A stretch of 64,000 nt of DNA from a virus (IMGVR_UViG_3300029288_007064); one strand, 5' to 3'. Numbered from the stretch's first letter, positions 670-32,334 are shown. The notes: a model not told the origin generated them from the letters alone. A program made the numbers and translations.

Positions 670-1161
670 TCACCTTATTCGGAATAACTCTCTATTTACC
701 ATTACCTTTTGTATCATTTCTCTTATGTCTTTCTTTTCATACCAAGGTTTCTTTCCCAGTATCCATTCCATAATTTCTCTTGTATCAGTCATACAATATT
801 CTCTCATCGCATACACTACAGATACTAGAAGCTCTATTTTATCAAAATCATACATATCATCTGAAAATTCTTTACGTAGTTTTGAAATCCTTTCCATTTC
901 TAGTTGTGATAATAAATAACATGGTGGATTTTTACATTCTTTTATCTCATATCCCAATGTTGATATATGAAAAGAAAATGGTCCTTTAACATACCACTCT
1001 TGCTTCGGAAGTCTTGCTATTCCAATTGTTGTTAGTATGTAAGCCATCTCTTGTAATCGTATTTTATGTTCAAAGTTGTCAAATTCAAACTTTCTGTGAT
1101 AAGTTTCTACATATAAAGAATTTAACCTTGCTGCTTCGTCATTCATTAATATCACCAGCAT
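670..1161 (-). CDS. hypothetical protein
   Basis: 163 aa ORF in an operon-like arrangement with the sugar-nucleotide genes. Confidence 0.4.
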   Translation of the reverse strand: MLVILMNDEAARLNSLYVETYHRKFEFDNFEHKIRLQEMAYILTTIGIARLPKQEWYVKGPFSFHISTLGYEIKECKNPPCYLLSQLEMERISKLRKEFSDDMYDFDKIELLVSVVYAMREYCMTDTREIMEWILGKKPWYEKKDIREMIQKVMVNRELFRIR

Positions 1162-2423
1162 ACGCCTTCATAGTTACCATCACTTCTCTTATTCCACAAA
1201 TGTCTTCCATCAAACACCTGTTTTCCTTCATATAAACTCTCATCCATAAACTCCTCCCATTCTGTAAGGACGAATACTATATCAGCATCCTTGACTGCCT
1301 CTCTTGCTGAAGAAGCATACTTTATTCCATTACCCAATAACTTCGTAGCGTTCTCCATTGCTTTTGGGTCGTATGCTGTAACAAGTGCTCCCATCTGAAG
1401 CAATCTTGGTGCAATCGTAAGGAAAGGAGACTCTCTTATATCATCAGTATCAGGTTTAAATGCAATTCCAAGAACTGCAACATTCTTTCCTGACAGACCA
1501 CCTGTCTTTTCCTTTGCGAGCTTCAATAACCTCAAAGGCTGGAGTTCATTAGTATCCATCACCGCTTGAAGTATCTTAGGCTCTACATCATTTACTTTTG
1601 CAGTATGAATAAGTGATTTCACATCCTTTGGGAAACAACTTCCACCAAAGCCTACACCTGCATTTAAGAACTGTGGTCCTATTCTTTTATCTGCTCCAAC
1701 ACCTATCATTACATCGTACACATCAATACCTAACTTCTTGCAAATATTGCCTATTTCATTTGAGAATGATATCTTCGTTGCAAGCATAGCATTACTTGTG
1801 TATTTAATCATTTCAGCAACCTTTATTTCAGTTACAAGTAAAGGACCAGGAGACAATGTAAATGAATACAACTCCCTTAATTTGTCTGATGTTTCGTGCT
1901 TATTGCATCCAATAACAATCCTATCTGGATATAGAAAATCTTGTACAGCATGTCCTTCTCTTAGAAACTCTGGATTCATAGCAATGCCATAATTATTTGC
2001 ACCAGACATTTGCAAAGTCATATCAACCTTTTCTGTAGTTCCTGGAGGAACGGTGCTTTTTACTACGATAATGTGATGAGTATTCTTCTTTGCCAATACC
2101 TTTCCGATCTGTTCTGCTGCTTCAAATATGGAAGTAAGGTCTGTGCTTCCATCTTCATTTGAAGGAGTGCCTACACAAATGAAAGTGATATCTGTCTTTA
2201 GTATTGCATCTTCTGCATCTGCTGTGACTTTGAACTTTCCGTTATTGACTACATCACCAAGCATATTGTCTAGCTCTGGCTCATATATCGTGCTTATTCC
2301 CTTGTTCAACGTTCTTATCTTTGTAGGATTTCTGTCTATGCAGATTACATCATTTCCTAAGTGTGCAAAACAAACTCCAGAAACCAAACCCACATAGCCA
2401 GTACCGAATATAGATATTTTCAT
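1152..2423 (-). CDS. ugd: UDP-glucose 6-dehydrogenase (UDP-glucose/GDP-mannose dehydrogenase family)
   Basis: 423 aa. N-terminal MKISIFGTGYVGLVSG NAD-binding motif and the catalytic-Cys region GFGGSCFPKDV. Length and architecture are typical of the family. Confidence 0.9.
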   Translation of the reverse strand: MKISIFGTGYVGLVSGVCFAHLGNDVICIDRNPTKIRTLNKGISTIYEPELDNMLGDVVNNGKFKVTADAEDAILKTDITFICVGTPSNEDGSTDLTSIFEAAEQIGKVLAKKNTHHIIVVKSTVPPGTTEKVDMTLQMSGANNYGIAMNPEFLREGHAVQDFLYPDRIVIGCNKHETSDKLRELYSFTLSPGPLLVTEIKVAEMIKYTSNAMLATKISFSNEIGNICKKLGIDVYDVMIGVGADKRIGPQFLNAGVGFGGSCFPKDVKSLIHTAKVNDVEPKILQAVMDTNELQPLRLLKLAKEKTGGLSGKNVAVLGIAFKPDTDDIRESPFLTIAPRLLQMGALVTAYDPKAMENATKLLGNGIKYASSAREAVKDADIVFVLTEWEEFMDESLYEGKQVFDGRHLWNKRSDGNYEGVCW

Positions 2424-2668
2424 TTTTCCACCATCTCCTTTTCAATAAATGATTTATAAACAATTTCCTTTTCTTCGTCTGGTAAATTACGCAATAACGA
2501 CACATATTTGTTGACTGTGTTCTTTGATATTCCTAATCTTTCTGCAATTGTGGTATTATTGCATCCCAAAGCTCTATATTTCATGATGTATCTCATGAAT
2601 AGTGGAGTAATCCTATATCTTTTTACTATTTTGTTGAATTCCACTATCTCACCTTCATCCATTCCCAA
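2420..2668 (-). CDS. small HTH DNA-binding protein (sigma-70 region 4 / LuxR-like helix-turn-helix)
   Basis: 82 aa; ...TIAERLGISKNTVNKYVSLL... is a classic HTH. Confidence 0.45.
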   Translation of the reverse strand: MGMDEGEIVEFNKIVKRYRITPLFMRYIMKYRALGCNNTTIAERLGISKNTVNKYVSLLRNLPDEEKEIVYKSFIEKEMVEK

Positions 2669-3576
2669 TACTTTTGCAATCCTTCATCCAACTTTATTCT
2701 AGGACGCCATCCTAATTCGTGTGCTGCTTTTGTATGGTCAGCAAGCGTTTCCTGAACGTCGCCAGCTTGGTCTTCAATATATTTTATCTCGGATTTGCTG
2801 TCTGTTATTGCAATAATCTTCTCTGCAAGCACCTTTACTGTGACTTTATTTCCTCCTCCAAGATTGTAAGGTCCTGTCTTACCTTTCTCAAGAGCATGAA
2901 GTGTTCCATTTACTATGTCTGAAATGTAAGTAAAATCTCTTGCTTTTGAACCATCACCATATACTTCAATAACTTCATTCTTTCTTGCCTTCTGGAAGAA
3001 CTTATGGATTGCAAGGTCTGGTCTTACTCTTGGACCATAGACTGTGAAATAACGAAGCATTGGGATTGTTATTCCATAAAGCTCCGAATAAACCCTGCAC
3101 AAATGCTCTCCTGCTAACTTGGATACTCCATATGGAGATATTGGTTCTGTTGGATGCTTTTCGTCGTACGGAAGATACTTCATTTTTCCATATACTGAGG
3201 AAGATGAAACAAAAATCATCTTATTTATTCCACATGCTTTTGCTTCATTAAGAACTGTAAGTGTTCCATCAACATTTACAGATACAGTCTTCTCTGGGTC
3301 TTCCAAAGAAGCACGAACACCTGCTTGTGCTGCAAGATGAATAACTGCATCCACATCTCTTATTGCTTCATTTACTGTTTTGTCGTTTCGTATGTCTCCG
3401 ACAACCAATTCAAAGCGTGGATTATCCATTGCTTCAGATAAATTTCTGTATTTAATTTCCCTGTCGTAGTATCCATCAAAGTTGTCAAGACCTCTGACTG
3501 AAAATCCTCCCATTAGTAATCTTTCTGTAACATGAGAGCCGATGAATCCTGCAGAGCCTGTGACCAATATTTTCAT
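2644..3576 (-). CDS. NAD-dependent sugar-nucleotide epimerase/dehydratase (GalE / UDP-glucuronate 4-epimerase-like)
   Basis: 310 aa. MKILVTGSAGFIGSHV Rossmann motif and YxxxK catalytic dyad (YGVSKLAGE). Sits between ugd and the UXS-like gene. Confidence 0.85.
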   Translation of the reverse strand: MKILVTGSAGFIGSHVTERLLMGGFSVRGLDNFDGYYDREIKYRNLSEAMDNPRFELVVGDIRNDKTVNEAIRDVDAVIHLAAQAGVRASLEDPEKTVSVNVDGTLTVLNEAKACGINKMIFVSSSSVYGKMKYLPYDEKHPTEPISPYGVSKLAGEHLCRVYSELYGITIPMLRYFTVYGPRVRPDLAIHKFFQKARKNEVIEVYGDGSKARDFTYISDIVNGTLHALEKGKTGPYNLGGGNKVTVKVLAEKIIAITDSKSEIKYIEDQAGDVQETLADHTKAAHELGWRPRIKLDEGLQKYWEWMKVR

Positions 3577-4178
3577 AGCAACTCCTCCACAACATCTCTG
3601 TATTTTTGGAAAAACTTATCGTGTTTTGGTAAGTCTGTCTCTCTAATATAATCTTCAACAGTTTTAATTGCTGTTTCAATTTCTTCTTCTTTACGAATAC
3701 TAAAATTCTTCATATACATAATTGGAAGGTTTCCGTCCGCAACTGAGAAAGCACTTCTTAATCCTCTTTCTACATATTGTTGTCTCTTTGGAATAAGATT
3801 ATCTATATATTTGTAGTAGTTGTATTTCGCCATTGAGATGTAATGCATTGCTAATTTATAGCGATTAAACTCTCCACTTTTTGCAAGAACTCTAAATTTC
3901 ACGAATACTTCATCTGAAAATAAACTTGGTGATAACAAACATTCTATTGCTGTAGGATTACTATTTTCTAAGTGATGGAAGAATTTATCAAAAGACCAGA
4001 ATACTGTCTCAAGAGGTTCTAAGTTTTCAGGATGTATTTCTTGCATTTCTGGTACTTTGTGCAATAGGATTTCTTTATGACTTCTATAATATACTCCTCT
4101 GAGGTCTATGTCAGAGCTATCTTTGTCCCAGTATCCCCACCCAAGACTTCCAGCTACACATAAGTATCCAAGTTTCAT
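3573..4178 (-). CDS. Pol-beta superfamily nucleotidyltransferase
   Basis: 201 aa. N-terminal GSLGWGYWDKDSSDIDL matches the G[GS]x9-13DxD minimal nucleotidyltransferase motif. 4-nt overlap with the epimerase stop and immediately upstream of the Thg1-like gene. Confidence 0.55.
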   Translation of the reverse strand: MKLGYLCVAGSLGWGYWDKDSSDIDLRGVYYRSHKEILLHKVPEMQEIHPENLEPLETVFWSFDKFFHHLENSNPTAIECLLSPSLFSDEVFVKFRVLAKSGEFNRYKLAMHYISMAKYNYYKYIDNLIPKRQQYVERGLRSAFSVADGNLPIMYMKNFSIRKEEEIETAIKTVEDYIRETDLPKHDKFFQKYRDVVEELL

Positions 4179-4188
4179 TCGTTATCAC

Positions 4189-4953
4189 CTATTCCTTTAT
4201 AATAGCATCTATATTAAAATCTTTGTGTGATACGTCCATAGTATTCAATTCGTAGCGTTCTGTTTCTACCGCAACCTTTTTAATAGGGTTGTATCCTATT
4301 TTCATCTTCTTTACTTTATATATAAATGTTCCTAAACAAATCCATGCAGGAATATCTGCCCAGTTTATATCAAAATTTTCAAGTACTTTCTTTTTCTCGA
4401 AATCTTTCATTCTGTCCATTTCCTTTGTAACTTTACGTGTTGATTTTGATTCTTTACTGACCTTAGTCCATAATAGATATGTTGATATGGAATTTCTTGC
4501 ACTATCATAAATTCTCCACTTTATGTTCTTCTTGACTAACTCAAACGTAGGGAATACTAATATCCGACAGTCAAAGCATGGATTTAAGTCTGGTTCTGTT
4601 CCAGTATTGATAACTTTGTTGAATACTACACTAAAATATGAAGGAATAACACTACATAGTTTTTCTGGTCTCCTATTGAACAATAAACTATCTCTTGCAA
4701 GTATAAGTGTTACTTCATCACTTTCAGTATAGGCAAAAATGATATCTGGAAATTCCTTTATAAGATATTTTGTAGTTGTAACAAGTGCTTCTCTTAATTT
4801 CTTATCAAACGGTCTTTCTAAACCTAAGCGTTTTACTTCTGTATGAAATTTTCTACCATCTAAACGAAGACAAATATAATTGCCCATAGGTACTTTTAAG
4901 TTGGCATTAACTTCATATTCCATCATCGTCTTATCAAAGCTTTCTCCTTTCAT
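4189..4953 (-). CDS. tRNA-His guanylyltransferase (Thg1)-like 3'-5' nucleotide polymerase
   Basis: 254 aa. Block similarity to eukaryotic and archaeal Thg1: YICLRLDGRKFH, IIFAYTESDEVTLIL, FDCRILVFPT, ISTYLLW. Length matches archaeal Thg1-like proteins. Confidence 0.8.
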   Translation of the reverse strand: MKGESFDKTMMEYEVNANLKVPMGNYICLRLDGRKFHTEVKRLGLERPFDKKLREALVTTTKYLIKEFPDIIFAYTESDEVTLILARDSLLFNRRPEKLCSVIPSYFSVVFNKVINTGTEPDLNPCFDCRILVFPTFELVKKNIKWRIYDSARNSISTYLLWTKVSKESKSTRKVTKEMDRMKDFEKKKVLENFDINWADIPAWICLGTFIYKVKKMKIGYNPIKKVAVETERYELNTMDVSHKDFNIDAIIKE

Positions 4954-5228
4954 TTTTCCCCCATCTCCTTTTCTCGTTTGTGGAGAGCATCTGCAAAATC
5001 TTGTGCAGATTTAGATAAATACCTTCTTAAAAAATCTCCAGACGGCTCATTAGTTAAAATAGGAAATCCATTTAGTTCACAGGTGCTTTCTACGAGAACA
5101 TAATTCTTTCCACATTTCGTGCAGTGGTAATAGTCTGCTCCCCCTCGTTTGTCTGGGGTGAGATAATGCCAAGAATATATTTCAACTGCTTCTCGCTCTT
5201 TGCAAAATCTGCATTCATATAAGTGCAT
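4950..5228 (-). CDS. zinc-ribbon protein
   Basis: 92 aa with CRFC...CTKC pairs. 4-nt overlap with the Thg1-like gene. Preceded by the conserved GGAGTTGGGGTAATG RBS/start element. Confidence 0.45.
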   Translation of the reverse strand: MHLYECRFCKEREAVEIYSWHYLTPDKRGGADYYHCTKCGKNYVLVESTCELNGFPILTNEPSGDFLRRYLSKSAQDFADALHKREKEMGEK

Positions 5229-5570: not shown

Positions 5571-5804
5571 TTAATACACCGTTAGTACTATAATCAAAAG
5601 CATAATCAATGTAATACCAATTATTCTGAATTTCATTTGGTTTTCTTTGCACCATACATCATACACAAGATTACAGTTCTTGCACTCATAGGCATAATTT
5701 CCAGAAACTATACCTTCTATTGTATACTGTGGCATTTTTGATACTAATTCTCCACACTTACCACACTTGAAATGCAAATCTGAACCTTCTTTAGACCAAC
5801 ACAT
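5571..5804 (-). CDS. zinc-ribbon protein with C-terminal TM helix
   Basis: 77 aa; CGKCG...CKNC; hydrophobic C-terminus. Confidence 0.4.
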   Translation of the reverse strand: MCWSKEGSDLHFKCGKCGELVSKMPQYTIEGIVSGNYAYECKNCNLVYDVWCKENQMKFRIIGITLIMLLIIVLTVY

Positions 5805-7021: not shown

Positions 7022-7025
7022 TTAA

Positions 7026-7268
7026 TCACCGTCTAACAGATTTCTTTATTGCATATAATATTTCGTGGTAAGTATCTTTCCCTAAACTACATCTTATCCC
7101 ATATAGAAGTGCTTTTTCGTCATCTGAAAGTAATTTTTTATTGAGTTGTGGTTCAAACCAATTATCATCTAAAGGCATTTGTCTATCAAATCCTTTATCT
7201 GGATTACAATTTTTGCAGAATATTTCTATTTCTTCCATACTACATTTACATTTTGAACATCTTATCAT
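7026..7268 (-). CDS. zinc-ribbon protein
   Basis: 80 aa, CSKCKC...CKNC. Confidence 0.4.
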   Translation of the reverse strand: MIRCSKCKCSMEEIEIFCKNCNPDKGFDRQMPLDDNWFEPQLNKKLLSDDEKALLYGIRCSLGKDTYHEILYAIKKSVRR

Positions 7269-7283
7269 AGTCGTTTCACCCTT

Positions 7284-7601
7284 CTACCTCCCAATCTTCG
7301 GAGAGGACATATATCTTTTTTCATAACCCCATTTTTTAGTTCCGTTTAGGTAAAGCCAATCCTTTCCTTTAACCTCAATCGCAACCATTCTTCCAACCGA
7401 AACAAGCCATTTGTTAATGCACTTCTTTGAACAGAAGTGTTCCATAACGCCCTCTCGCAAACAATAGAATTTCTTTTGTGAGATTTCTTTGCCACATTCC
7501 ATACATTTGCAAGCATAATCTGGTAATGCCTCTACTTCAATTTCTCCTGTAATTCTGTTCTTATTAGTCTTATTGGCTTGACAGATAGGACACTCAATCA
7601 C
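7284..7601 (-). CDS. zinc-binding protein (CPIC..CKC..C plus FCS/TRASH-like HFCSKKC motif)
   Basis: 105 aa with multiple Cys pairs. Confidence 0.4.
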   Translation of the reverse strand: MIECPICQANKTNKNRITGEIEVEALPDYACKCMECGKEISQKKFYCLREGVMEHFCSKKCINKWLVSVGRMVAIEVKGKDWLYLNGTKKWGYEKRYMSSPKIGR

Positions 7602-7904: not shown

Positions 7905-7930
7905 CAAACTATTTATAAAGGTATGCTTTT
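7905..7930 (-). promoter_or_regulatory. archaeal-type TATA-box-like promoter element (TTTATAAAGGTATGCT)
   Basis: TTTATAAA at 7912-7919, 32 bp upstream of the ATG at 7880. Near-identical copy at 16175-16194. Confidence 0.4.
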
Positions 7931-9028
7931 ATACATTTCCCTTATTCTAGGCAGTATTCCTTCCCAGGAGAACTTCTTTGCAGTTTCCAAAGCATTCTCA
8001 GACAGTTTTACTCTTAATTTATCATCGGTCAATACCTTCTCAAGATACTCTGCAAGTTCTTCTGGATTATCAGGTTTAACAAGAATACCGTTTTCGTAAT
8101 GCTTTATGATGTCAGGTATTCCTCCAACCATTGTTCCAACTGGTGTTATTCCACAAGCCATCGCTTCAATAAACACGATGCCAAATCCTTCGTCTCTGGA
8201 AGGACGACAGAAGACATCTGCCGAGGAATACCATTTTGATATTTCTTCGTGCTTTACTGGTGGATGAAATATTACTTCATTAGATGCCAATTTCATTAAT
8301 CTTTCTTTCTCTTCTCCATCTCCAATGATTACTAGCTCCCAATCTGGATGCTTTGGTTTAAGAACGCTAAATGCTCTTATGAGAGTATCTATTCCATTTT
8401 TGTGAGTAAGCCTGGATACACTCAGTATTATCTTTGAAGGATTGTCATCAAAGAACTCTCCTCTTATGTCTTTTGTCTTTTCAAATAACTTCAAATCAAC
8501 GGCATTTGGAATGACCACTACGTTCTTTGCACCAAGTGCTTTTGCCTTGCGTTCTAGGTCGTTAGAAACAGCGTGTACAACGTCTGCATTTCGAAGTGTC
8601 CAAGATACTATCGGTCTCAATATCTTGCCGAATTTACCCGTATTCTCGCTGTAATCACACATATCTCCTCCCTGTATGGTGACTATTGCTTTCTTGCCTG
8701 TCAATTTTTTGAGTATAACTGCTGAAGTTCCGGCAGTGAAAGCCATCGTTCCGTGATAGCAATTTACATCTTTTCTTTGTATCCACCCTTCAATAACAGA
8801 AGTGAAAAGGAATGAAAAAAGTTTTACGTTCTTTATCATAATCATAGGAACACGATTTACCTTTACTCCATTTATTACTTCTTTGTCTGGAAGGTCTCCT
8901 TTGAACTTTCCTGTAATAACCGAGACATCATTATCCACTGCTAATCTTTCACATAAGTCTTTTGCGAATACTTCAGCTCCTCCTTCATTTATTGGATGAT
9001 AGAAGGCACATATATGTATGATTTTCAT
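7913..9028 (-). CDS. GT4-family (GT-B fold) glycosyltransferase
   Basis: 371 aa; MKIIHICAFYHP...; C-terminal EGFGIVFIEAMACGITPV EX7E motif. Confidence 0.85.
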   Translation of the reverse strand: MKIIHICAFYHPINEGGAEVFAKDLCERLAVDNDVSVITGKFKGDLPDKEVINGVKVNRVPMIMIKNVKLFSFLFTSVIEGWIQRKDVNCYHGTMAFTAGTSAVILKKLTGKKAIVTIQGGDMCDYSENTGKFGKILRPIVSWTLRNADVVHAVSNDLERKAKALGAKNVVVIPNAVDLKLFEKTKDIRGEFFDDNPSKIILSVSRLTHKNGIDTLIRAFSVLKPKHPDWELVIIGDGEEKERLMKLASNEVIFHPPVKHEEISKWYSSADVFCRPSRDEGFGIVFIEAMACGITPVGTMVGGIPDIIKHYENGILVKPDNPEELAEYLEKVLTDDKLRVKLSENALETAKKFSWEGILPRIREMYKSIPL

Positions 9029-9352: not shown

Positions 9353-9372
9353 AATTTATAAACCTATGCTCT
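9353..9372 (-). promoter_or_regulatory. archaeal-type TATA-box-like promoter element (TTTATAAACCTATGCT)
   Basis: TTTATAAA at 9355-9362, 29 bp upstream of a small unlisted ORF beginning MDMEGK at 9326. 19-bp identical copy at 18631-18650. Confidence 0.35.
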
Positions 9373-9646
9373 ACCTATACATCTCGGTGTTATCCGGTTC
9401 TTTCTCTAGCATAATCGCTCCAGTATCCAATTTCGCCTTACATTTTTTACATTGAATAACAAACTCTCCTGTTTTCTTTAGTGTTAATATTGTAGTGTTA
9501 TTCGATATTTCGGTTTGACATTTCTTACAAAAGCTCTTTACAACAAATGTTTTCCTTCGTGGTGCTCCAAAGAAACTTTTCAAGATATCTAGCTTGAAAC
9601 CTTTCCTATTCTTATTTATGTCCTTTACTGCATCTTCGATTTCCAT
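9371..9646 (-). CDS. zinc-ribbon protein
   Basis: 91 aa; CKKCQ...CKKCK. Confidence 0.4.
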   Translation of the reverse strand: MEIEDAVKDINKNRKGFKLDILKSFFGAPRRKTFVVKSFCKKCQTEISNNTTILTLKKTGEFVIQCKKCKAKLDTGAIMLEKEPDNTEMYR

Positions 9647-9807: not shown

Positions 9808-10008
9808 TCATTTCACCTTCAATATCCGCAATGTTCTACCTTTCGTAGTTTTAGCAAATACATTATTGCATATCATACAAGCATCATCTGCTTTTGCTTT
9901 TACTATCTTAGCGTAGCGATAGTCTTTGTAAGAATAACCATTTAATTCTATTTTGTTATTCCAGCAATAATCGCAGCATCCGGTTCTCATCCTAATCCAC
10001 CCATACAT
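9808..10008 (-). CDS. small Cys-rich protein
   Basis: 66 aa; CCDYC...CMIC. Confidence 0.35.
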   Translation of the reverse strand: MYGWIRMRTGCCDYCWNNKIELNGYSYKDYRYAKIVKAKADDACMICNNVFAKTTKGRTLRILKVK

Positions 10009-13724: not shown

Positions 13725-13890
13725 CTCGATTGATTATTACTTTGTTATTAAACTTGTCTATTATCACTAGTTCTTTATCGGTTACAGTTATTGCTTCGCC
13801 GGTATAATAACTAAGCGAATTGCCTCCTGGATTTTTAACTCTAAGACTATATCGCTTACCCACTTCATATGTTTCATTTTCCATGTTCAT
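13684..13890 (-). CDS. small hypothetical protein
   Basis: 68 aa. Confidence 0.3.
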   Translation of the reverse strand: MNMENETYEVGKRYSLRVKNPGGNSLSYYTGEAITVTDKELVIIDKFNNKVIINRDDISTGMETNGDG

Positions 13891-14491
13891 TCACCGTTGC
13901 CATTGCCTCATATAAATTATTTCCCAAGACTTTCTTGCATTTTGGACACTCTAGATATACGAATCCAATATCTTCATTTGGCTCTAGTTCATATCCGTTT
14001 GGAAATTTAGAGTCCACAAATACTTTTGCTTCGATAGTTGTGCCAAAGTAATCAATAATTTCTTGGCAATAAGGGCATACCATATCCTCTTCTTCCGATT
14101 CAATTAATTCTTCAGCAATTTGCTTTCTTTCTTCTTCCTCATCGGCTTGTCTTTCATGCATCCTATCTTCGTCCTCTTCTAGTTCATCTACTCTATTCAT
14201 TTTTTCTTTTATCATTTCTATAATATCGGTCTCCCTATTATGTACTGCATAAAACAGTGCATCTTTTCCTTGGCAGTTAGTTAAATAAATATCTGCACCT
14301 GTATCTAGTAATACTTTTACTATTTCAAGATGACCGTTGGCTACTGCACACATTAGTGGAGTTGTTCCATATTCTGTTGAAGAGTTTACGTTTACTCTCA
14401 TCGCAAGTAATTTTCTTACTTGTTTTATATCTCCGTTCCTTGCACTTTCAATTAAATCATCCTCTTGTAAAGTTTGTATTTTTATAACCAT
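13874..14491 (-). CDS. ankyrin-repeat protein with C-terminal zinc ribbon
   Basis: 205 aa. GTTPLMCAVANGHLEIVKVLLDTGADI and GKDALFYAVHN ankyrin repeats; C-terminal CPYCQ...CPKCKK. Confidence 0.6.
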   Translation of the reverse strand: MVIKIQTLQEDDLIESARNGDIKQVRKLLAMRVNVNSSTEYGTTPLMCAVANGHLEIVKVLLDTGADIYLTNCQGKDALFYAVHNRETDIIEMIKEKMNRVDELEEDEDRMHERQADEEEERKQIAEELIESEEEDMVCPYCQEIIDYFGTTIEAKVFVDSKFPNGYELEPNEDIGFVYLECPKCKKVLGNNLYEAMATVNEHGK

Positions 14492-17009: not shown

Positions 17010-17205
17010 TTTTCTTCGCCCTCAATACTACTTCGTATTCTGTTGGTGTATGCAATCCTGCTAAAAATATCTCGTGCAAGGCACTTAGTGTTTTAGCCCT
17101 TCCCTCGAATACATAATTGTCGTTGAAAATACTGCCGTGCAATATTTTATCCAAGAGGTCTTTTGGTTTCCTTATTATTCCTGTTTCTATTACCAGTTCG
17201 ATCAT
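17002..17205 (-). CDS. small hypothetical protein
   Basis: 67 aa. Confidence 0.3.
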   Translation of the reverse strand: MIELVIETGIIRKPKDLLDKILHGSIFNDNYVFEGRAKTLSALHEIFLAGLHTPTEYEVVLRAKKND

Positions 17206-17945
17206 TTTTTCACCTTATATAACTCCTTTATGTTATCCGGAAACGTATTCCCAGGTTTATTGGTGAATGTGATATCTCCTTTCTCAGCACAGAACCAAAG
17301 ATTCGGTCCGAATCTTTTCCAAAACCACTCAGTAATAAAGTTCAATTGCGGTGGAAAGAACCTCGTATATGCTGCTTCATTAATTACTTTGTATCCGGAG
17401 TGCTGCAATAAATACTTCAGTGTGGGATAATTGAAGGTGTAGAAATGGCAGTCGCTTTCATATGTCTTCTTAATTCCTTGTGGAATAAGTGAAGTGTATT
17501 GTGGTATTTGTAATATCAGCTTCCCATCTTCTTTAAGCAATTCTCTACATTGAAGTAAGAAAGCATAAGGAGCAGTCAGATGTATGAGCATATCTGTGCA
17601 CCAAATGTAGTCAAACTTTTCACCGTTGAACTTATCATAAAATCTTTCTTCAACATTTAATCTTCTGACATCAAGACCTAATTTGCTACAAAAACCATAA
17701 TGCTCGTCTGAAATATCAATACCAACTGAACCTTTTCCAAAGTGAATCAAGTTCTGACCATAAGCACATCCAATGTCAAGAAGTTTCTTGCTCAAATCCA
17801 TATTAAATTTTCCATAGATGTATCTATGGTCTTTGAACCAATCTTTGAAGTAGAGATTGTATACTACTTCGTTCTGTTCTTTCGTGTATGCACCTTTATT
17901 CAATATTAGTTCTTCAAGGGTATTCGTTTCAATTATTTTTTCCAT
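17202..17945 (-). CDS. class I SAM-dependent methyltransferase
   Basis: 247 aa. Motif I LLDIGCAYGQN and post-I acidic residue (GIDISDE). Confidence 0.75.
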   Translation of the reverse strand: MEKIIETNTLEELILNKGAYTKEQNEVVYNLYFKDWFKDHRYIYGKFNMDLSKKLLDIGCAYGQNLIHFGKGSVGIDISDEHYGFCSKLGLDVRRLNVEERFYDKFNGEKFDYIWCTDMLIHLTAPYAFLLQCRELLKEDGKLILQIPQYTSLIPQGIKKTYESDCHFYTFNYPTLKYLLQHSGYKVINEAAYTRFFPPQLNFITEWFWKRFGPNLWFCAEKGDITFTNKPGNTFPDNIKELYKVKK

Positions 17946-18083
17946 TTGCTACACTTCCGGTTCTGGTACTGTACAATCTCTATATTTTAGATTTTGTTCT
18001 TTGAATGGATAAAACTTTTCCCTTTTATGATAATAACCATATTGATTACCACAAAGTTGTGTTCCGCAATGTTTGCATTTCAT

Positions 18084-18314
18084 TTACTCTCCCTCCTCGT
18101 CCTTGTCAATCACGTTGTCCACATAGTCCGTTAAATCATCTAAAACTCTTAGACGAATTATATACATTTTTCTTTCTTCATCAGCCACTTCCGGATTAAG
18201 TATTTCTCCATTCAGAGTTCCCTTTTCGGAAATCTCCTTTGCTTTCTCTTGGTACACCTTTTGGAGTTTCCAAATATATTTCAGCAATTTTGCATAGTCT
18301 TTCATTTTAATCAC
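18084..18314 (-). CDS. small acidic hypothetical protein
   Basis: 76 aa. Confidence 0.3.
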   Translation of the reverse strand: MIKMKDYAKLLKYIWKLQKVYQEKAKEISEKGTLNGEILNPEVADEERKMYIIRLRVLDDLTDYVDNVIDKDEEGE

Positions 18315-18507
18315 TTTGTTTTTTATTCGAGAATAATTTATAATGTAATTCTTTCGCTCTATCTAAACAAGATTTTTCTCCTTTCTTTGCTTCGGCATGA
18401 AAATGCATTCCGTCAAATTCATCATAAGGAACATTATGTATAATCTCTCTTCCACATCCATCACAACATAGATATGAAATGATACGTGCTTCTTCTTTCC
18501 AAGTCAT
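18307..18507 (-). CDS. zinc-binding small protein
   Basis: 66 aa; CCDGCG...H..H. Confidence 0.35.
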   Translation of the reverse strand: MTWKEEARIISYLCCDGCGREIIHNVPYDEFDGMHFHAEAKKGEKSCLDRAKELHYKLFSNKKQSD

Positions 18508-18632
18508 TTAATCGTCCTCTTCTTCAGCAACAAATATTTCCCTCGTAAATTTAAGTTGTCCAACCAAATTCTTTTCCTCTTCTGTCATTCCGTATTCCAT
18601 AGGTTTTCACCAAGAAATACCTTGAAACAAAC

Positions 18633-18652
18633 AATTTATAAACCTATGCTTT
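18633..18652 (-). promoter_or_regulatory. archaeal-type TATA-box-like promoter element (TTTATAAACCTATGCT)
   Basis: TTTATAAA at 18635-18642, 35 bp upstream of a tiny unlisted ORF (MEYGMTEEEK..., ATG at 18600) that is coupled to the 18307..18507 gene. Confidence 0.35.
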
Positions 18653-18898
18653 TCACATGTATCCAAGTTCTTGCTCTATTTCTCCGAACACCTTATTATA
18701 TTCTTTTTCATTTTTACGCATAATGTACGCTTCACGTAAAGATGCGATAATAAGACCAACACCTATGACGAAAAATACTATCCCAACACCAAGCTCAATG
18801 ATGCTTTCTGAGATTACAATTTGTTGATAACCCACTACTACAAAATACATCCACAATAAGCAATACATTACATAATCTCTCCATTTATCTCCTAGCAC
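18653..18898 (-). CDS. small membrane protein
   Basis: 81 aa with two TM helices. Confidence 0.35.
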   Translation of the reverse strand: MLGDKWRDYVMYCLLWMYFVVVGYQQIVISESIIELGVGIVFFVIGVGLIIASLREAYIMRKNEKEYNKVFGEIEQELGYM

Positions 18899-20004
18899 TT
18901 AATCACCTTCTTAAATTCAATTTCTGTTTGCTTTACATTATTCTCCCAAGAGTGTTCTGTTGCAACTTTGTTGTATCCATTTGTTCTTAATGTTTTCATC
19001 AATTTCTGATTATCTAATTTCTCAACTACTTCTATCAATGCCTTAATATTTTCTTCTCTTGGTTCTGATGGAATAAGCAAACCATTAACTTTATCTTCAA
19101 TAAGTTCCTTATTTGGTTCAATATCGCTTGCAATTACTGGAACCTTTTCTGAGAACGCTTCTAGTATTGAATGAGACATTCCTTCATATGAAGAGTTCAG
19201 AATAAATGCTTTAGAGCAAGTAAGAATATTCATAAGCATAGCATTAGACAACTTTCCAGCAATCCGGATGTTTTTATATGGTTTTGCTTGTGCTCGTAAT
19301 TCTTTTTCAAGTGGTCCATCTCCTATTATGAGTATTTCTCTTTTTGGCATTCGTGAAAATGCTTCAATAATTCTATCAAATCTTTTCCATGGGACATATC
19401 TTCCATAAGCAATACATTTATCAGACCCAATTGCATCGTTATTTGGAGCATGTATTGCATTGTTTATTGCAACAATCTTTTTATCCTCTATTCCATAACA
19501 TTCATGTATAATCCTCTTCAAATATTTACTCGGAGTTATTACCAGAGAGCAATACTTCAATACTTCTTTCTGTATTTTTATTATATGCGGATTTGCGTCT
19601 GGGTCTTTAAGAAATGGTTCAAGTTCCTTTTCACTCGTGTTTTCTCTTCTTGCTTTCTCCCATGCAGTATCGCCAGCATATCTTATTGCTACAGGAATTT
19701 TAAACATATTTCCAAACACAACACAATTGGAACCTATCGCTGCGATATCTAAACCATATATAAGGTCGCTATCTCTTGCATACTGAGAAAGAGCTTTTAC
19801 TATTCTCATACTATTCATTATTTCTCCTTGTCGTATTATACTGTACACTTCTAGTCCATATTTCTGTTTTGGATGTTCTTTACATAATGTAATGATTTTT
19901 ACTTCATGTCCTTTCTTCTTTAAACCTAATGCCAAAGGCACAACATATGTTGCTGGACCACCAATCTCCGGAGGGAATAGTGGTGTTACGATTGTTATTT
20001 TCAT
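18892..20004 (-). CDS. GT4-family glycosyltransferase
   Basis: 370 aa; GT-B architecture; C-terminal EGMSHSILEAFSEKVPVIASD EX7E-like motif. Confidence 0.8.
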   Translation of the reverse strand: MKITIVTPLFPPEIGGPATYVVPLALGLKKKGHEVKIITLCKEHPKQKYGLEVYSIIRQGEIMNSMRIVKALSQYARDSDLIYGLDIAAIGSNCVVFGNMFKIPVAIRYAGDTAWEKARRENTSEKELEPFLKDPDANPHIIKIQKEVLKYCSLVITPSKYLKRIIHECYGIEDKKIVAINNAIHAPNNDAIGSDKCIAYGRYVPWKRFDRIIEAFSRMPKREILIIGDGPLEKELRAQAKPYKNIRIAGKLSNAMLMNILTCSKAFILNSSYEGMSHSILEAFSEKVPVIASDIEPNKELIEDKVNGLLIPSEPREENIKALIEVVEKLDNQKLMKTLRTNGYNKVATEHSWENNVKQTEIEFKKVIKC

Positions 20005-21506
20005 GGCTTAATCACCTGACCATTTTGGTCATATGAACACTTTTTCATTTTCTTAGTTCTCCCTTTCAAATATTTATTCGCGATAATGTATTCAATAGGG
20101 AAGTCAAAGTATTTAAATTTCCACCTTAGTTTTGAAGCTGTTATGAACAATCTCTTAAACAGATTATTCACTTTTATTCCTCCTTCCATTAGTCTTGTCT
20201 CTGGTGTAAGTGCAAAGTTCATGTATGCCCAAATTGCTTCAACAAAGTCTGGCTCATTCACCCATGGAAGTTTTGTTACTGAAATGTAGCTCCATTCTGT
20301 TTCCATTAAGTCAGACCATGCTTGCAAACTATCCGGTGCTTTCCATCCAAACGCTTCACATTCGTTATCCAAAGGACTTCCTGGATATGGACGGTAAGGT
20401 TGTGGTCCAATAAATTCAGCGTTAGGATTGGCTTCATAGAGCCTTGCAAACGCATCTATGGTTAGGAGCATATCTTCCTTTGTTTCATTAGGAAGACCTA
20501 TCATGAATGAATACTCAGGAGTGATTCCGAACTCCTTGGATTTCTTTGCCGATAAAACCAACTGGTCTGTACTTACATCTTTTTTAATCATACGCAATAT
20601 TCTTGGCGAACCGCTTTCTGCCCCAAAGCAGAACTTGTAACACCCAGAATCTTTTATCAACTGTAAGTATTCATCTGTTATAACTTTTGTGAAGTAATCA
20701 CCACGTACAGTCGTCTCCCATTCTACTTTTAATCCTCTGTCTATAATTCCTTGCATTATTTCTTTGGAGCGTTTTGGGTTATTAAAGAAGTTTTCATCCC
20801 AAAACCTTATCTTTCTTCCAGGATATTTCTTTGCAACCTGTTCAAGTTCATCAAGCACTCTCTTAGGAGACATTCCTCTCCAGCCACATCCGGTTATTGG
20901 ATTGATGCAATAAGCACATCTATGTGAGCACCCTCTGCTTGTATGTGAAGGCAATAACTTAATTTTATTCATTACTTCTTTATTTAGCAAGTCATAATTT
21001 ATGTATGGTGCTTTGTCCATATTAATGTAAGGTCTTCTAGGAGTGTGAATTACTTTACCATCTTTTTTAAATGTCAATCCTAATATTTTATCCAAACTTT
21101 TACTTTCACTTAAAGCTTTAGTTAATTCTACGCATGTTACTTCTCCTTCGTCTCTTACAACAATATCAACACGAGAGTCTATTACAGTTTGTGCTGGAAA
21201 TAAAGTTGGATGTGGACCACCCCAAACAATTGGAACTTCTGGTGCAAACTTCTTTATGTATTCGCTTAAAAATAATGCATGCGGTATCTGCACAGTCATT
21301 ACTGATAAGCCAATCCAAGTACAATTTTCTATCTCTTTTTTTATTTCTACTAGATGTTCTTTTGTAGTAAGACAATCAATAATTTTAACATCTATTCCTG
21401 CTTCCTTTAATGCCGAACCAACATATGCTATTCCTATCGGTATGCTTGTTGCATTACTATCAAATTCCAATCCGCTAAACACAGGATTAATCAATAACAC
21501 TTTCAC
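20001..21506 (-). CDS. B12-binding-domain radical SAM enzyme (class B)
   Basis: 501 aa. N-terminal Rossmann-like B12-binding domain (MKVLLINPVFS...IIDC...VWGGPHPT), then a CxxxCxxC cluster (SRGCSHRCAYCINP). Confidence 0.85.
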   Translation of the reverse strand: MKVLLINPVFSGLEFDSNATSIPIGIAYVGSALKEAGIDVKIIDCLTTKEHLVEIKKEIENCTWIGLSVMTVQIPHALFLSEYIKKFAPEVPIVWGGPHPTLFPAQTVIDSRVDIVVRDEGEVTCVELTKALSESKSLDKILGLTFKKDGKVIHTPRRPYINMDKAPYINYDLLNKEVMNKIKLLPSHTSRGCSHRCAYCINPITGCGWRGMSPKRVLDELEQVAKKYPGRKIRFWDENFFNNPKRSKEIMQGIIDRGLKVEWETTVRGDYFTKVITDEYLQLIKDSGCYKFCFGAESGSPRILRMIKKDVSTDQLVLSAKKSKEFGITPEYSFMIGLPNETKEDMLLTIDAFARLYEANPNAEFIGPQPYRPYPGSPLDNECEAFGWKAPDSLQAWSDLMETEWSYISVTKLPWVNEPDFVEAIWAYMNFALTPETRLMEGGIKVNNLFKRLFITASKLRWKFKYFDFPIEYIIANKYLKGRTKKMKKCSYDQNGQVIKP

Positions 21507-25368: not shown

Positions 25369-25506
25369 CCAAATAAATATTCCACCACTTTCAAAAGTAT
25401 ATAAAATCCAATAACTCCTATCATAACTCCTGCCAGTATTCCTCTATAGAATGAATCATTTGAAGAACCAAACTTACTTGCAATTTCTAATGCTCTCTTT
25501 TCTTTT

Positions 25507-29647: not shown

Positions 29648-30274
29648 TCACCTTATTGCCTTTATCATATTTACCAAATAAAACTGCTTGCCTAACTTCC
29701 TTTCTGATGGTAATATTAAGTTGTTATCCATCCACTTTACTATTGGTCTATACAAACCATGCAGAGGTCGGAGAGGTACAGGTGTTGTGAATAAAGTCAC
29801 TTCAGAAATAACTCCATACCTTCCTCCCAACTGCTCCACTTGTACCGATTTAAAGTGTGATTGTGCTTCTATTTGCATTTTTCTTCCTGTCCAGCGAATA
29901 TAATCTCCATAAACATCGGAGCCATGATAAGGATAAATAAATGGAATAGTGGCAAACAGCGTTCCTCCTCTCTTCAATACACGAGAGCACTCTCTAAAGA
30001 AGTGTTCTGTGTAATCAAGGTGTTCAAGAATATTCAAAGCCAGGATGCCGTCAAAGTGCTGGTCAGGAAGTGGGAATATCTCCGTAGCATCCATGACGAC
30101 ATCTGGCTTTGTTTCTGGGTCGATGTCTGCTCGTGTGATATCCGCTGTCTGAAGAGGGAGAGCAGACAATTCCGACTTTCCAGCACCAAGATTTAACCAC
30201 TTGCCTTGGAAGGACTGCTTCTTTAGATAATCATATTCCAGTTCTCTTGTTAGGGAAATCATTTTAGCACCCAC
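29648..30274 (-). CDS. class I SAM-dependent methyltransferase
   Basis: 208 aa; WLNLGAGKS motif I; Methyltransf_11-like layout. Confidence 0.65.
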   Translation of the reverse strand: MGAKMISLTRELEYDYLKKQSFQGKWLNLGAGKSELSALPLQTADITRADIDPETKPDVVMDATEIFPLPDQHFDGILALNILEHLDYTEHFFRECSRVLKRGGTLFATIPFIYPYHGSDVYGDYIRWTGRKMQIEAQSHFKSVQVEQLGGRYGVISEVTLFTTPVPLRPLHGLYRPIVKWMDNNLILPSERKLGKQFYLVNMIKAIR

Positions 30275-31207: not shown

Positions 31208-31251
31208 TTACGTTTTGCTATTTTTAATTGAAACAAATAATCTTTAAACAT

Positions 31252-31710: not shown

Positions 31711-31711
31711 G

Positions 31712-32308: not shown

Positions 32309-32334
32309 GAGTAAATCCTCTTTATAATTAATGA

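What the first reader, a model, noticed from the sequence alone, without database searches (positions are those of the whole stretch)
3573..5228. Nucleotidyltransferase + Thg1-like 3'-5' polymerase + Zn-ribbon operon: possible tRNA end-repair or anti-defence module
Three overlapping genes (4-nt ATGA overlaps) encode a minimal Pol-beta nucleotidyltransferase (GSx11DID), a full-length Thg1-like protein with the conserved Thg1 blocks, and a CxxC zinc-ribbon protein.
Thg1-like proteins add nucleotides 3'-to-5' and repair tRNA 5' ends. A template-independent 3' nucleotidyltransferase beside it suggests a module that restores both tRNA termini, for example against host tRNA-cleaving defence nucleases.
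A Thg1-like enzyme inside a virus-like element, paired this way, is to my knowledge not a described system.
Basis: partly seen in the sequence, partly recalled or inferred. Interest (0 to 1): 0.75.

Follow-up and report, generated by a model that had tools for sequence, protein, structure and literature searches.

The report
Viral tRNA-end repair gene pair
Two adjacent genes in a ~94-kb circular virus-like genome encode known RNA-repair enzymes, one extending RNA 5' ends and one extending 3' ends; this pairing recurs in bacteria and giant phages, so it is a new example of a known kind of system, not a new system.

Summary
The three minus-strand ORFs exist as described. ORF 4189..4953 is a Thg1-like protein (TLP) with all three catalytic carboxylates. 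ORF 3573..4178 is a short RlaP-family (PF10127) Pol-beta nucleotidyltransferase, not a toxin-antitoxin MNT. ORF 4950..5228 is a CxxC...CxxC zinc-ribbon protein.

- Only the Zn-ribbon/TLP junction is an ATGA overlap. TLP and RlaP are 10 nt apart, and RlaP overlaps the unrelated sugar epimerase downstream.
- The trio is not conserved. The closest homologue of each gene sits in an unrelated context, and small zinc-ribbon ORFs make up about 10% of this genome's genes.
- Thg1-like genes in viruses are well known: PHROG 4717, 157 GenBank phage records, at least 588 IMG/VR contigs, and papers from 2010 and 2021.

The TLP-RlaP link does appear to be real. RlaP lies on the same strand within 8 kb of TLP in 14 of 80 bacterial TLP loci, in operons with PNK-type kinases, RtcB or Rnl1 ligases and KptA. 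Independent jumbo-phage contigs carry Thg1 followed by RlaP, either adjacent or one gene apart.

Best reading: a pared-down RNA/tRNA end-repair pair with no kinase or ligase nearby, probably countering tRNA-damaging nucleases. Its substrate and purpose are inferred, not shown. Interest is modest.

The parts
4189..4953 (-). Thg1-like protein (TLP) gene, 254 aa: a 3'-5' RNA polymerase of the bacterial TLP type
   Evidence: PF04446 E=5e-33 and phrog_4717 7e-42. Matches PDB Thg1/TLP chains at 1e-16 to 1e-18. D32, D79 and E80 align with human Thg1 D29, D76 and E77 and are invariant in 26 relatives. It has 'DSARNSIS' where eukaryotic Thg1 has HINNLYN, like BtTLP 'DASKNSIS'. The closest cellular relatives are bacterial TLPs at 30-35% identity.
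3573..4178 (-). Short RlaP-family (PF10127) Pol-beta-fold RNA 3' nucleotidyltransferase gene, 201 aa
   Evidence: PF10127 E=2.6e-19 (70 bits, cut-off 23, profile positions 19-147 of 249); phrog_14344 and phrog_388 'nucleotidyltransferase'. G10, S11, D23, D25, K65, N74, E79, H112, Y113 and K131 sit at columns that are at least 98% conserved in 147 family members. The AF2 model has pLDDT 92.9, with an NTase domain plus a helical domain. The canonical third acidic position is S62, and D64 is conserved within the short subfamily.
4179..4191 (-). TLP/RlaP junction: TAG stop of TLP, AGGTGA Shine-Dalgarno-like motif overlapping the stop, 10-nt spacer before the RlaP ATG
   Evidence: Read directly from the sequence. 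No minus-strand terminator-like or above-chance promoter-like site lies between the two genes.
4950..5228 (-). Neighbouring zinc-ribbon ORF (92 aa; C6xxC9...C36xxC39), ATGA overlap with TLP. Examined and judged NOT a component of the repair pair.
   Evidence: No Pfam, PHROG or PADLOC match. The only relative (P0043, 72% identity) lies in a contig without TLP or RlaP and shares nothing else with the window. 12 of 120 minus-strand ORFs are small 2xCxxC proteins. The AF2 model is unusable at pLDDT 51.7.

Best explanation
The core of the finding is a two-gene RNA (most likely tRNA) end-repair pair carried by a ~93.8-kb circular virus-like element.

Gene 1 (4189..4953) is a bacterial-type Thg1-like protein. 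By homology it activates an RNA 5'-phosphate and adds nucleotides in the 3'-to-5' direction. It uses the opposite strand of the tRNA acceptor stem as template and so rebuilds 5'-truncated tRNAs.

Gene 2 (3573..4178), 10 nt downstream, is a short RlaP-family Pol-beta nucleotidyltransferase. [quoted passage not shown]

Together they would replace nucleotides lost from the 5' side and the 3' side of damaged RNA ends. Any sealing, phosphorylation or CCA completion would be left to host enzymes, or to genes in the unseen 15% of the genome. No kinase, ligase or CCA-adding enzyme lies nearby.

The likely purpose is to keep the tRNA pool usable when nucleases from host defence, toxin-antitoxin systems or competitors attack it.

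Shown here: family membership, an intact TLP active site, and recurrent linkage of the two families in bacteria and phages. Inferred: substrate, cooperation of the two enzymes, and a counter-defence role. The upstream zinc-ribbon ORF is not part of the pair.
For: Family identity:
- TLP: PF04446 5e-33, phrog_4717 7e-42, PDB Thg1/TLP hits at about 1e-18, and D32/D79/E80 conserved (residue roles from PMC6471195).
- RlaP: PF10127 2.6e-19 and a confident NTase-plus-helical-domain model.

Biochemistry of the families:
- TLPs repair 5'-truncated tRNAs by templated 3'-5' addition (PMC3061083, PMC4820378, listed).
- RlaP adds 1-2 NMP to RNA 3'-OH, and this raised the aminoacylation of repaired, over-damaged tRNA in vitro.

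Linkage in bacteria:
- RlaP lies within 8 kb and on the same strand in 14 of 80 TLP loci.
- Pfam confirmed four different operon designs:
  - Phascolarctobacterium: MBL-RlaP-WYL-WCX-x-KptA-TLP-kinase/phosphatase/Rnl1.
  - Chryseobacterium: RlaP-x-R2K-kinase-TLP-x-x-RlaP.
  - Bacteroidales: RlaP-kinase-TLP-WYL/WCX.
  - Flammeovirgaceae: Band7-RtcB-kinase-TLP-x-RlaP.
- Random placement in genomes of about 4 Mb would give roughly 0.3 of 80 (my estimate).

Linkage in viruses:
- 4 of 80 IMG/VR RlaP loci have Thg1 within 10 kb.
- L239, a 279-kb CcrColossus-like phage, has Thg1 then RlaP in the same order with a TGATG overlap.
- L185 and L201 have one gene between them.
- These Thg1 proteins are only 30-35% identical to the window's. 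The L239 and L185 RlaPs give no BLASTP match to the window RlaP, and L184's is 29% identical. The pairings therefore arose independently.

Viral relatives of this TLP sit beside other tRNA-repair genes: RtcB, CCA-adding enzyme, PTH2 and an RNA ligase. A weak PTH2 match lies about 8 kb away in the same genome.
Against: - Adjacency means little in this genome. About 80% of gene junctions are 20 nt or less, and RlaP is just as tightly joined to a sugar epimerase.
- The closest homologues of TLP (41-46% identity) and of RlaP (42-50% identity) are never neighbours of each other.
- Among 80 IMG/VR Thg1 loci, RlaP is never adjacent and lies about 5 kb away in only 2-3.
- Cultured phages that carry both genes usually keep them 8-128 kb apart.
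- The PNK-type kinase found next to TLP in 59 of 80 bacterial loci is absent here. No RNA ligase or CCA-adding enzyme was found in the ~79 kb examined.
- The window RlaP matches only the N-terminal half of the Pfam profile. It has Ser (S62) where 90% of family members have Asp or Glu, the third catalytic carboxylate. An Asp conserved within the subfamily lies two residues later (D64). Its activity may therefore differ or be lost.
- Characterised RlaPs prefer anticodon-loop breaks, where TLP has no template.
- No experiment addresses either protein.
Confidence: 0.6

Rival explanations
1. The two genes are independent accessory genes that happen to be adjacent. The TLP works alone in tRNA-His G-1 addition or general tRNA 5'-end quality control. 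The RlaP works separately, for example with a host RtcB or Rnl ligase on anticodon-loop breaks. There is no joint module.
For: Genes are tightly packed on one strand throughout the genome. RlaP overlaps the sugar epimerase, not TLP. The nearest homologues are unlinked. Cultured phages with both genes keep them far apart. Phage annotations uniformly call the gene 'tRNA-His guanylyltransferase'. Bacterial TLPs can add G-1 opposite C73 (family literature, PMC3061083).
Against: The two families are linked on the same strand in at least four bacterial operon designs and in at least two independent phage lineages. No tRNA gene, and so no virus-encoded tRNA-His needing G-1, was found in the ~79 kb seen. 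The protein lacks the HINNLYN anticodon-recognition motif of true tRNA-His guanylyltransferases.
Confidence: 0.27
2. All three genes form one system: zinc-ribbon protein (RNA or tRNA recognition) plus TLP plus NTase.
For: ATGA overlap between the zinc-ribbon ORF and TLP. In one viral relative (L173) a 45-aa 2xCxxC ORF also precedes TLP.
Against: The only zinc-ribbon homologue (72% identity) lies in a contig without TLP or RlaP. The ORFs upstream of TLP in L002, L003 and L174 have no CxxC motif, and the one in L171 has a single CxxC. 12 of 120 ORFs in this genome are small 2xCxxC proteins, so having one as a neighbour is expected by chance about one time in five. Bacterial operons have a P-loop kinase at that position instead.
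Confidence: 0.04
3. The 201-aa NTase is not an RNA-repair enzyme. It would instead be an oligonucleotide-synthesising or small-molecule or protein-modifying NTase, such as a HalB-like enzyme of Hailong defence, a KNTase-like enzyme or an MNT antitoxin. A virus might use it as a decoy or anti-defence factor.
For: The best structural neighbours of the AF2 model are Hailong HalB (9dbj/9dbh, E about 4e-5, TM 0.49) and kanamycin nucleotidyltransferase. The canonical third carboxylate is displaced (S62/D64). Only half of the RlaP profile is matched.
Against: The Pfam RlaP score is three times the curated cut-off, and no other NTase family was reported at E<=0.1. Ten RlaP signature residues are conserved. 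There is no sequence match to HalB or any PDB chain even at E=10 with a profile, and no PADLOC match. TM of 0.4-0.5 with rmsd of about 10 A shows only a shared fold. No RlaP structure was among the PDB matches by sequence or by fold, so the search could not have returned one.
Confidence: 0.06

Closest known systems
Bacterial TLP-centred RNA-repair operons: P-loop polynucleotide kinase plus Thg1-like protein, with or without RNA ligase and Macro (Anantharaman, Iyer & Aravind 2010, PMC2904730). Seen here also with RlaP, RtcB or Rnl1, KptA, R2K ATP-grasp and WYL/WCX regulators.
   Same: Same two enzyme families (bacterial-type TLP, RlaP), co-directional and close together. The TLP active site is conserved.
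   Different: The window lacks the kinase present in 59 of 80 bacterial loci, any RNA ligase, KptA and a WYL regulator. TLP is only 30-35% identical. The RlaP belongs to a ~200-aa subfamily that lacks the N-terminal ~24 residues and a C-terminal insert, and its third carboxylate is shifted. The carrier is a virus-like element.
RNA-repair gene sets of jumbo phages (Iyer et al. 2021, PMC7824862, section 3.4.9): RlaP alongside RNA ligases, CCA-adding enzyme, sporadic Thg1, PTH2.
   Same: Same families in a large viral genome with the same proposed role of restoring bases lost from RNA ends after host nuclease attack. A weak PTH2 match also occurs in this genome. L239 shows the same Thg1-then-RlaP order.
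   Different: The genome is ~94 kb, below the usual jumbo-phage size. No RNA ligase was seen. In cultured phages the two genes are usually far apart. I could not find direct TLP-RlaP adjacency described in the searchable literature. Burroughs & Aravind 2016 (NAR 44:8525) could not be read.
Bacillus thuringiensis TLP (PDB 4KGK/4KGM) and Methanosarcina acetivorans TLP (5AXK-5AXN): templated 5'-end tRNA repair enzymes.
   Same: Alignable over about 200 residues (E about 1e-18). The carboxylates and the SDE motif are conserved. The 'D[AS]x[KR]NSIS' segment resembles BtTLP.
   Different: About 30% identity or less. The Thg1C domain is below the Pfam cut-off. Activity is untested.
Pseudomonas fluorescens / P. 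aeruginosa RlaP (bioRxiv 10.64898/2025.12.29.696909) and T4 NrdC.11.
   Same: Same Pfam family PF10127, same GS...DxD motif, and an NTase plus helical-domain fold in the model.
   Different: The characterised enzymes lie in RtcB-RlaP-RtcA operons and have three canonical Asp residues. The window protein is ~50 aa shorter, has S62/D64 in place of the third Asp, and sits next to a TLP with no ligase.
Phage T4 Pnkp/Rnl1 repair of PrrC-cleaved tRNA-Lys (from general knowledge).
   Same: The logic is the same: phage enzymes mend host-inflicted tRNA damage.
   Different: T4 heals and seals a clean break using a kinase-phosphatase plus a ligase. The pair here would add missing nucleotides and has no healing or sealing enzyme.

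Membership tests
Thg1 superfamily (PF04446), 3'-5' nucleotidyltransferases | Match to the catalytic N-terminal Thg1 domain above the curated threshold | tested here: met
   114.2 bits against a cut-off of 29.2, E=5e-33, profile positions 3-130 of 130. phrog_4717 at 7e-42.
Thg1 superfamily (PF04446), 3'-5' nucleotidyltransferases | Three metal-binding carboxylates equivalent to human Thg1 D29, D76, E77 | tested here: met
   D32, D79 and E80 align with RLDGR and SDE of 3OTB, 5XOX, 4KGK and 5AXK. They are invariant in 26 homologues. Residue roles come from PMC6471195.
Thg1 superfamily (PF04446), 3'-5' nucleotidyltransferases | C-terminal Thg1C domain (PF14413) | tested here: inconclusive
   20.5 bits against a cut-off of 26.3. 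The region aligns with relatives that carry precomputed PF14413 hits.
Bona fide tRNA-His guanylyltransferase (eukaryotic-type Thg1) | HINNLYN anticodon-recognition motif | tested here: not met
   The window has RIYDSARNSISTY where yeast and human have THINNLYN / CHINNLYN. The motif's role is given in PMC6471195. The protein is therefore filed as a TLP, not as Thg1 proper.
Thg1-like proteins (TLP), templated tRNA 5'-end repair | Watson-Crick templated 3'-5' addition to 5'-truncated tRNA | not testable with these tools
   Needs an enzyme assay. Inferred from homology to BtTLP and MaTLP and from the nearest cellular relatives being bacterial TLPs.
RlaP (PF10127), RNA-repair Pol-beta nucleotidyltransferases | Match to the family profile above the curated threshold | tested here: met
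   70.3 bits against a cut-off of 23, E=2.6e-19, but only profile positions 19-147 of 249. 441 relatives at E<=1e-3 in the representative library, and only 8 at E<=1e-10.
RlaP (PF10127), RNA-repair Pol-beta nucleotidyltransferases | Pol-beta NTase motif G-S...D-x-D plus a third catalytic carboxylate (the preprint describes 'three strictly conserved aspartic acids') | tested here: inconclusive
   G10, S11, D23 and D25 are present at columns at least 98% conserved. The third acidic column (D or E in 132 of 147 sequences) is S62 in the window and its short subfamily, with D64 conserved two residues later.
RlaP (PF10127), RNA-repair Pol-beta nucleotidyltransferases | Genomic association with an RNA ligase (the basis of the family name) | tested here: not met
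   No RtcB, Rnl1, Rnl2-type or PF09414 ligase was found in the window, L001 or L170, about 79 of 93.8 kb. 14.6 kb of the genome was not seen.
RlaP (PF10127), RNA-repair Pol-beta nucleotidyltransferases | Addition of 1-2 NMP to RNA 3'-OH | not testable with these tools
   Needs an enzyme assay. Shown only for PfRlaP and PaRlaP.
   RlaP was the only Pfam family reported at E<=0.1. The neighbours are TLP and a sugar epimerase. No PADLOC hit.
Hailong HalB-type oligodeoxyadenylate synthase | Sequence relationship to HalB and an adjacent HalA membrane effector | tested here: not met
   Similarity is at fold level only (TM 0.49, 15% identity). A profile search of the PDB found nothing at E<=10. There is no membrane-protein partner next to it.

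The most novel reading that the evidence does not exclude
TLP followed by RlaP is a self-sufficient, recurrently assembled two-enzyme 'end-rebuilding' cassette. It would restore nucleotides removed from both strands of the tRNA acceptor stem, or from both sides of a break, by a class of host defence nucleases that leave 3'-OH and 5'-phosphate ends. It would therefore need neither kinase nor ligase. The short RlaP subfamily with its shifted third carboxylate (S62/D64) would be specialised for this job. This would be a counter-defence mechanism not yet shown experimentally and the first physiological role for a prokaryote-type TLP.
Probability: 0.18. Interest if true: 0.6.

Novelty: new member of a known kind. 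Interest (0 to 1): 0.3.

Why it matters
The physiological role of bacterial-type Thg1-like proteins is still unknown. In vitro they repair 5'-truncated tRNAs, but no natural damage source has been identified. RlaP was first characterised biochemically only in a December 2025 preprint.

This work adds a compact viral TLP-RlaP pair, the bacterial operons found here that combine TLP, RlaP, a kinase and a ligase, and independent phage pairings. Together they suggest that the two enzymes act in one pathway. They also give a simple two-gene construct to test against tRNA-targeting defence nucleases.

If the pair turns out to be only two neighbouring accessory genes, the finding is routine annotation of known phage gene families.

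Tried and rejected
1. Zinc-ribbon protein as a third component. Rejected on lack of conservation and the high background of such ORFs. Its structure prediction was too poor to use (pLDDT 51.7).
2. MNT antitoxin reading of the NTase. Rejected.
3. Maturation of virus-encoded tRNA-His. No tRNA was found by ARAGORN or Rfam in the window, L001 or L170.
4. Operon boundaries. The promoter and terminator scan was no better than shuffled sequence.
5. Synteny with relatives. tblastx of L002-L007 against the window shares only the single query gene each time.
6. Finding the short RlaP subfamily in IMG/VR. The first alignment was too diverse, and the narrow one gave no confirmed locus.
7. PDB sequence searches for RlaP found nothing.
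8. Looking for a kinase, ligase, CCA-adding enzyme or KptA elsewhere in the genome. None was found in ~79 kb. The look-up of the window-end protein failed, and 14.6 kb of the circular genome stayed unseen.
9. Hallmark virion genes. None was recognised, so 'virus' is not proven.
10. Burroughs & Aravind 2016, which defined RlaP, could not be retrieved. Whether it already reports TLP-RlaP linkage is unknown.
Full report
OBSERVATION

The three minus-strand ORFs are real: 4950..5228 (92 aa), 4189..4953 (254 aa) and 3573..4178 (201 aa).
- The 254-aa protein matches Pfam Thg1 (PF04446, E=5e-33, 114 bits against a 29-bit cut-off) and PHROG 4717 'tRNA-His guanylyltransferase' (7e-42).
It matches Pfam RlaP, 'RNA repair pathway DNA polymerase beta family' (PF10127, E=2.6e-19, 70 bits against 23).
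- The 92-aa protein has two CxxC pairs and matches nothing.

The overlap claim is only partly right. Zn-ribbon/TLP share ATGA, but TLP and RlaP are separated by 10 nt, with a Shine-Dalgarno-like AGGTGA over the TAG stop. The second ATGA overlap joins RlaP to the next gene, an NAD-dependent sugar epimerase.

In this genome 93% of the minus strand is coding. Of 119 gene junctions, 18 are 4-nt overlaps and about 80% are 20 nt or less. Promoter and terminator scans do not exceed shuffled controls. Overlap and adjacency carry little information here.

THE ELEMENT

The window is a stretch of co-directional genes at about 35% GC. It encodes:
- a family-B DNA polymerase, an SNF2-type helicase, two N6/N4 DNA methyltransferases, an RFC-like clamp loader, an ERCC4-HhH nuclease and a Sak4-like protein;
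- many glycosyltransferases and sugar-nucleotide enzymes;
- a 2591-aa DUF2341 protein.

The window spans the two ends of an ENA contig of 93,958 nt whose coordinates wrap with a 141-nt offset. The genome is therefore a ~93.8-kb circle or is terminally redundant.

An integrase lies just outside the window. No capsid or terminase gene was recognised in the ~79 kb I could see, so 'virus-like' is plausible but not proven. No tRNA or Rfam RNA was found.

THE THG1-LIKE PROTEIN

It aligns with solved Thg1 and TLP structures at E about 1e-16 to 1e-18. D32, D79 and E80 correspond to the three metal-binding carboxylates D29, D76 and E77 of human Thg1 (role stated in PMC6471195). They are invariant in 26 homologues, as are R30, S78, K98 and R130.

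It lacks the eukaryote-specific HINNLYN anticodon-recognition motif. It has DSARNSIS there instead, close to DASKNSIS of the Bacillus thuringiensis TLP. Its nearest cellular relatives are bacterial TLPs at 30-35% identity.

It is therefore a bacterial-type TLP. Members of this group repair 5'-truncated tRNAs in vitro by templated 3'-5' addition (PMC3061083, PMC4820378, PMC6471195).

THE NUCLEOTIDYLTRANSFERASE

It is an RlaP-family protein, not an MNT antitoxin. No other NTase family appears at E<=0.1 and there is no PADLOC hit.

RlaP was named for its association with RNA ligases. Two Pseudomonas RlaPs have now been shown to do the following (bioRxiv 10.64898/2025.12.29.696909):
- add one or two NMPs to RNA 3'-OH ends with little NTP specificity;
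- prefer the 3' end of the 5' half of an anticodon-loop-cleaved tRNA over the acceptor end;
- raise the aminoacylation of repaired tRNA that had lost a nucleotide.

The window protein belongs to a rare ~200-aa subfamily. Only 8 of 441 relatives score at E<=1e-10 in 1.8 billion representatives. The subfamily lacks about 24 N-terminal residues and a C-terminal insert.

Ten signature residues are conserved. However, the column holding the third catalytic acid (Asp or Glu in 132 of 147 relatives) is Ser62, and an Asp conserved in the subfamily lies two residues later (D64).

The AlphaFold model is confident (pLDDT 92.9) and shows an NTase domain plus a helical domain. Its best PDB neighbours are Hailong HalB and kanamycin nucleotidyltransferase at TM 0.4-0.5. 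There is no sequence-level relationship to either. I treat this as a shared fold only.

IS THE TRIO A CONSERVED MODULE?

It is not.
- The only zinc-ribbon relative (72% identity) sits in a contig without TLP or RlaP.
- The closest RlaP relatives (42-50% identity) sit among unrelated small genes, in one case beside a protein-primed PolB.
- The closest TLP relatives (41-46% identity) have no RlaP.
- tblastx shows that each of these contigs shares only that single gene with the window.
- Small 2xCxxC proteins are 12 of 120 minus-strand ORFs, so a zinc-ribbon neighbour is unremarkable.

IS THE TLP-RLAP PAIR MEANINGFUL?

The evidence here is better.

Bacteria:
- Among the 80 best bacterial TLP loci (plus or minus 8 kb), a broad RlaP profile found an RlaP gene on the same strand in 14.
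- Pfam confirmed four operon designs:
  - Phascolarctobacterium: metallo-beta-lactamase, RlaP, WYL, WCX, x, KptA, TLP, kinase-phosphatase-Rnl1.
  - Chryseobacterium: RlaP, x, R2K ATP-grasp, kinase, TLP, x, x, second RlaP.
  - Bacteroidales: RlaP, kinase, TLP, WYL/WCX.
  - Flammeovirgaceae: Band-7, RtcB, kinase, TLP, x, RlaP.
- The same loci reproduce the published kinase-TLP link (59 of 80) and hold Rnl1-type (16) or RtcB (6) ligases (PMC2904730).
- Random placement in a ~4-Mb genome would give about 0.3 RlaP per 80 loci (my estimate).

Viruses:
- Among 80 IMG/VR Thg1 loci, RlaP lay within 10 kb in only two or three and was never adjacent.
- Among 80 IMG/VR RlaP loci, four had Thg1 within 10 kb. 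L239, a 279-kb CcrColossus-like contig, has Thg1 then RlaP in the same order with a TGATG overlap. L185 and L201 have one 186-aa gene between them.
- These Thg1 proteins are 30-35% identical to the window's. The L239 and L185 RlaPs give no BLASTP match to the window RlaP, and L184's is 29% identical. The pairings are therefore independent.
- Cultured relatives (CcrColossus, Kikimora, BcepSauron, FLC9) carry both genes 8-128 kb apart. Their RlaP sits near an RNA ligase or next to a peptidyl-tRNA hydrolase.
- In the viral clade closest to the window's TLP, TLP sits near RtcB, CCA-adding enzyme, PTH2 or an RNA ligase.
- Immediate neighbours of viral Thg1 genes include 2H/Acb1-type and metallophosphoesterases, RNA ligases and a 'Swiss-army-knife' RNA-repair HAD domain.

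Overall the TLP repeatedly sits among RNA-repair genes, and its 3'-end nucleotidyltransferase partner varies. In this genome that partner is RlaP.

MECHANISM (INFERRED)

TLP needs a 5'-phosphate or 5'-triphosphate and a template strand. RlaP needs a 3'-OH. The pair has no end-healing kinase or phosphatase and no ligase within reach. It would therefore suit ends left by metal-dependent nucleases or exonucleases, which carry 3'-OH and 5'-P.

One possibility is trimming of the acceptor stem, with host CCA-adding enzyme finishing the 3' end. Another is that the pair feeds a host ligase at an internal break, as the bacterial operons suggest.

Which RNA is repaired, and against which nuclease, is unknown. 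I put 0.6 on 'cooperating RNA/tRNA end-repair pair' and about 0.27 on 'two independent accessory genes adjacent by chance'. The three-gene version and a non-repair NTase get small probabilities.

NOVELTY

Thg1 in large DNA viruses was reported in 2010 for mimivirus and phage 201phi2-1, with an RNA-repair or counter-defence role already suggested (PMC2904730).

The 2021 jumbo-phage survey lists RlaP, CCA-adding enzyme and Thg1 together as enzymes that restore missing bases at RNA ends (PMC7824862).

PHROGs has a dedicated family. 157 GenBank phage records and at least 588 IMG/VR contigs carry a homologue.

What may be new is the direct TLP-RlaP linkage and the short RlaP subfamily. I found no paper in the searchable library that describes either. 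The 2016 paper that defined RlaP could not be read.

I file this as a new member of a known kind, with modest interest (0.3).

Noticed in passing
window 45010-45952 (repeats at 45122-45164 and 45197-45334): This is the only long intergenic region and the point where gene orientation switches. It holds tandem repeats of 21 nt (2 copies) and about 50 nt (2.6 copies), and GC skew turns positive at 46-48 kb. It may be a replication origin with iterons.
   Followed up: no
whole window; ENA contig ERZ27247363:k141_2937403: The window runs across both ends of a 93,958-nt contig, and the two coordinate mappings differ by 93,817 nt, which fits a 141-nt end overlap. The genome is a ~93.8-kb circle or is terminally redundant. 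About 14.6 kb of it was never seen.
   Followed up: partly
window 55607..63382 (-) and beyond the window end (L170 4407-9878): A giant 2591-aa ORF (DUF2341) is preceded by a 1314-aa NosD/beta-helix protein, an Rce1-like protease and a YdjM membrane protein. These may be surface, adhesion or tail-fibre-like proteins. No capsid or terminase gene was recognised anywhere in the ~79 kb seen.
   Followed up: partly
window 1152..3576, 7913..9028, 17202..21506, 24349..26637, 29648..32968 (-): The window holds a large set of glycan and sugar-nucleotide genes: UDP-glucose dehydrogenase, NAD epimerase, four GT4 glycosyltransferases (some matching 'GT4-conflict'), a B12-radical SAM enzyme, three SAM methyltransferases and a hexapeptide acyltransferase. 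They suggest modification of DNA, the virion or the host surface.
   Followed up: no
window 26674..28098 (-); L093 4771-5901: A 474-aa Band-7/SPFH protein is encoded in the window. A Band-7 gene also heads the Band7-RtcB-kinase-TLP-x-RlaP operon of a Flammeovirgaceae MAG. A link to RNA repair is possible but was not examined.
   Followed up: no
window 33749..34441, 35174..37348, 40195..41091, 13874..14491 (-): The window encodes an ERCC4-(HhH)2 nuclease, a family-B polymerase and an RFC-like clamp loader, which is an archaeal or eukaryote-flavoured replication and repair set, plus an ankyrin-repeat protein. The host domain was not determined.
   Followed up: no
window, 12 ORFs including 5571..5804, 7026..7268, 7284..7601, 9371..9646, 9808..10008 (-): About 10% of the minus-strand ORFs are small proteins with two CxxC pairs (zinc ribbons), and none has a family assignment.
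   Followed up: partly
window 3573..4178 (-), residues S62/D64: The short RlaP subfamily has W-S-F-D-K where canonical RlaPs have W-D-x-x-K. The third catalytic carboxylate appears to have moved two residues along. One subfamily member (P0046) has A/N at these positions and may be inactive.
   Followed up: partly
L108, L103, L147, L154, L093 (bacterial loci): Bacterial TLP operons combine RlaP (sometimes two paralogues), a P-loop kinase, KptA/Tpt1, an R2K ATP-grasp protein, WYL/WCX regulators and RtcB or a kinase-phosphatase-Rnl1 fusion. These are richer than the kinase-TLP pair described in 2010.
   Followed up: partly
L239 9135-10777; L256 (Brevundimonas phage Kikimora) 3603-4855; L255 (CcrColossus) 3998-7420: In CcrColossus-like jumbo phages the slot just upstream of RlaP varies. 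It is Thg1 in the metagenomic L239, peptidyl-tRNA hydrolase in Kikimora, and a small hypothetical gene in CcrColossus, where an RNA ligase lies 1.4 kb downstream. Kikimora's RlaP is annotated 'DNA polymerase'.
   Followed up: partly
RlaP AF2 model m9bc0b8cfba4d: The best PDB fold neighbours are Hailong HalB, an anti-phage oligo-dA synthase, at TM about 0.49, and kanamycin nucleotidyltransferase. No RlaP structure appeared among the matches.
   Followed up: partly
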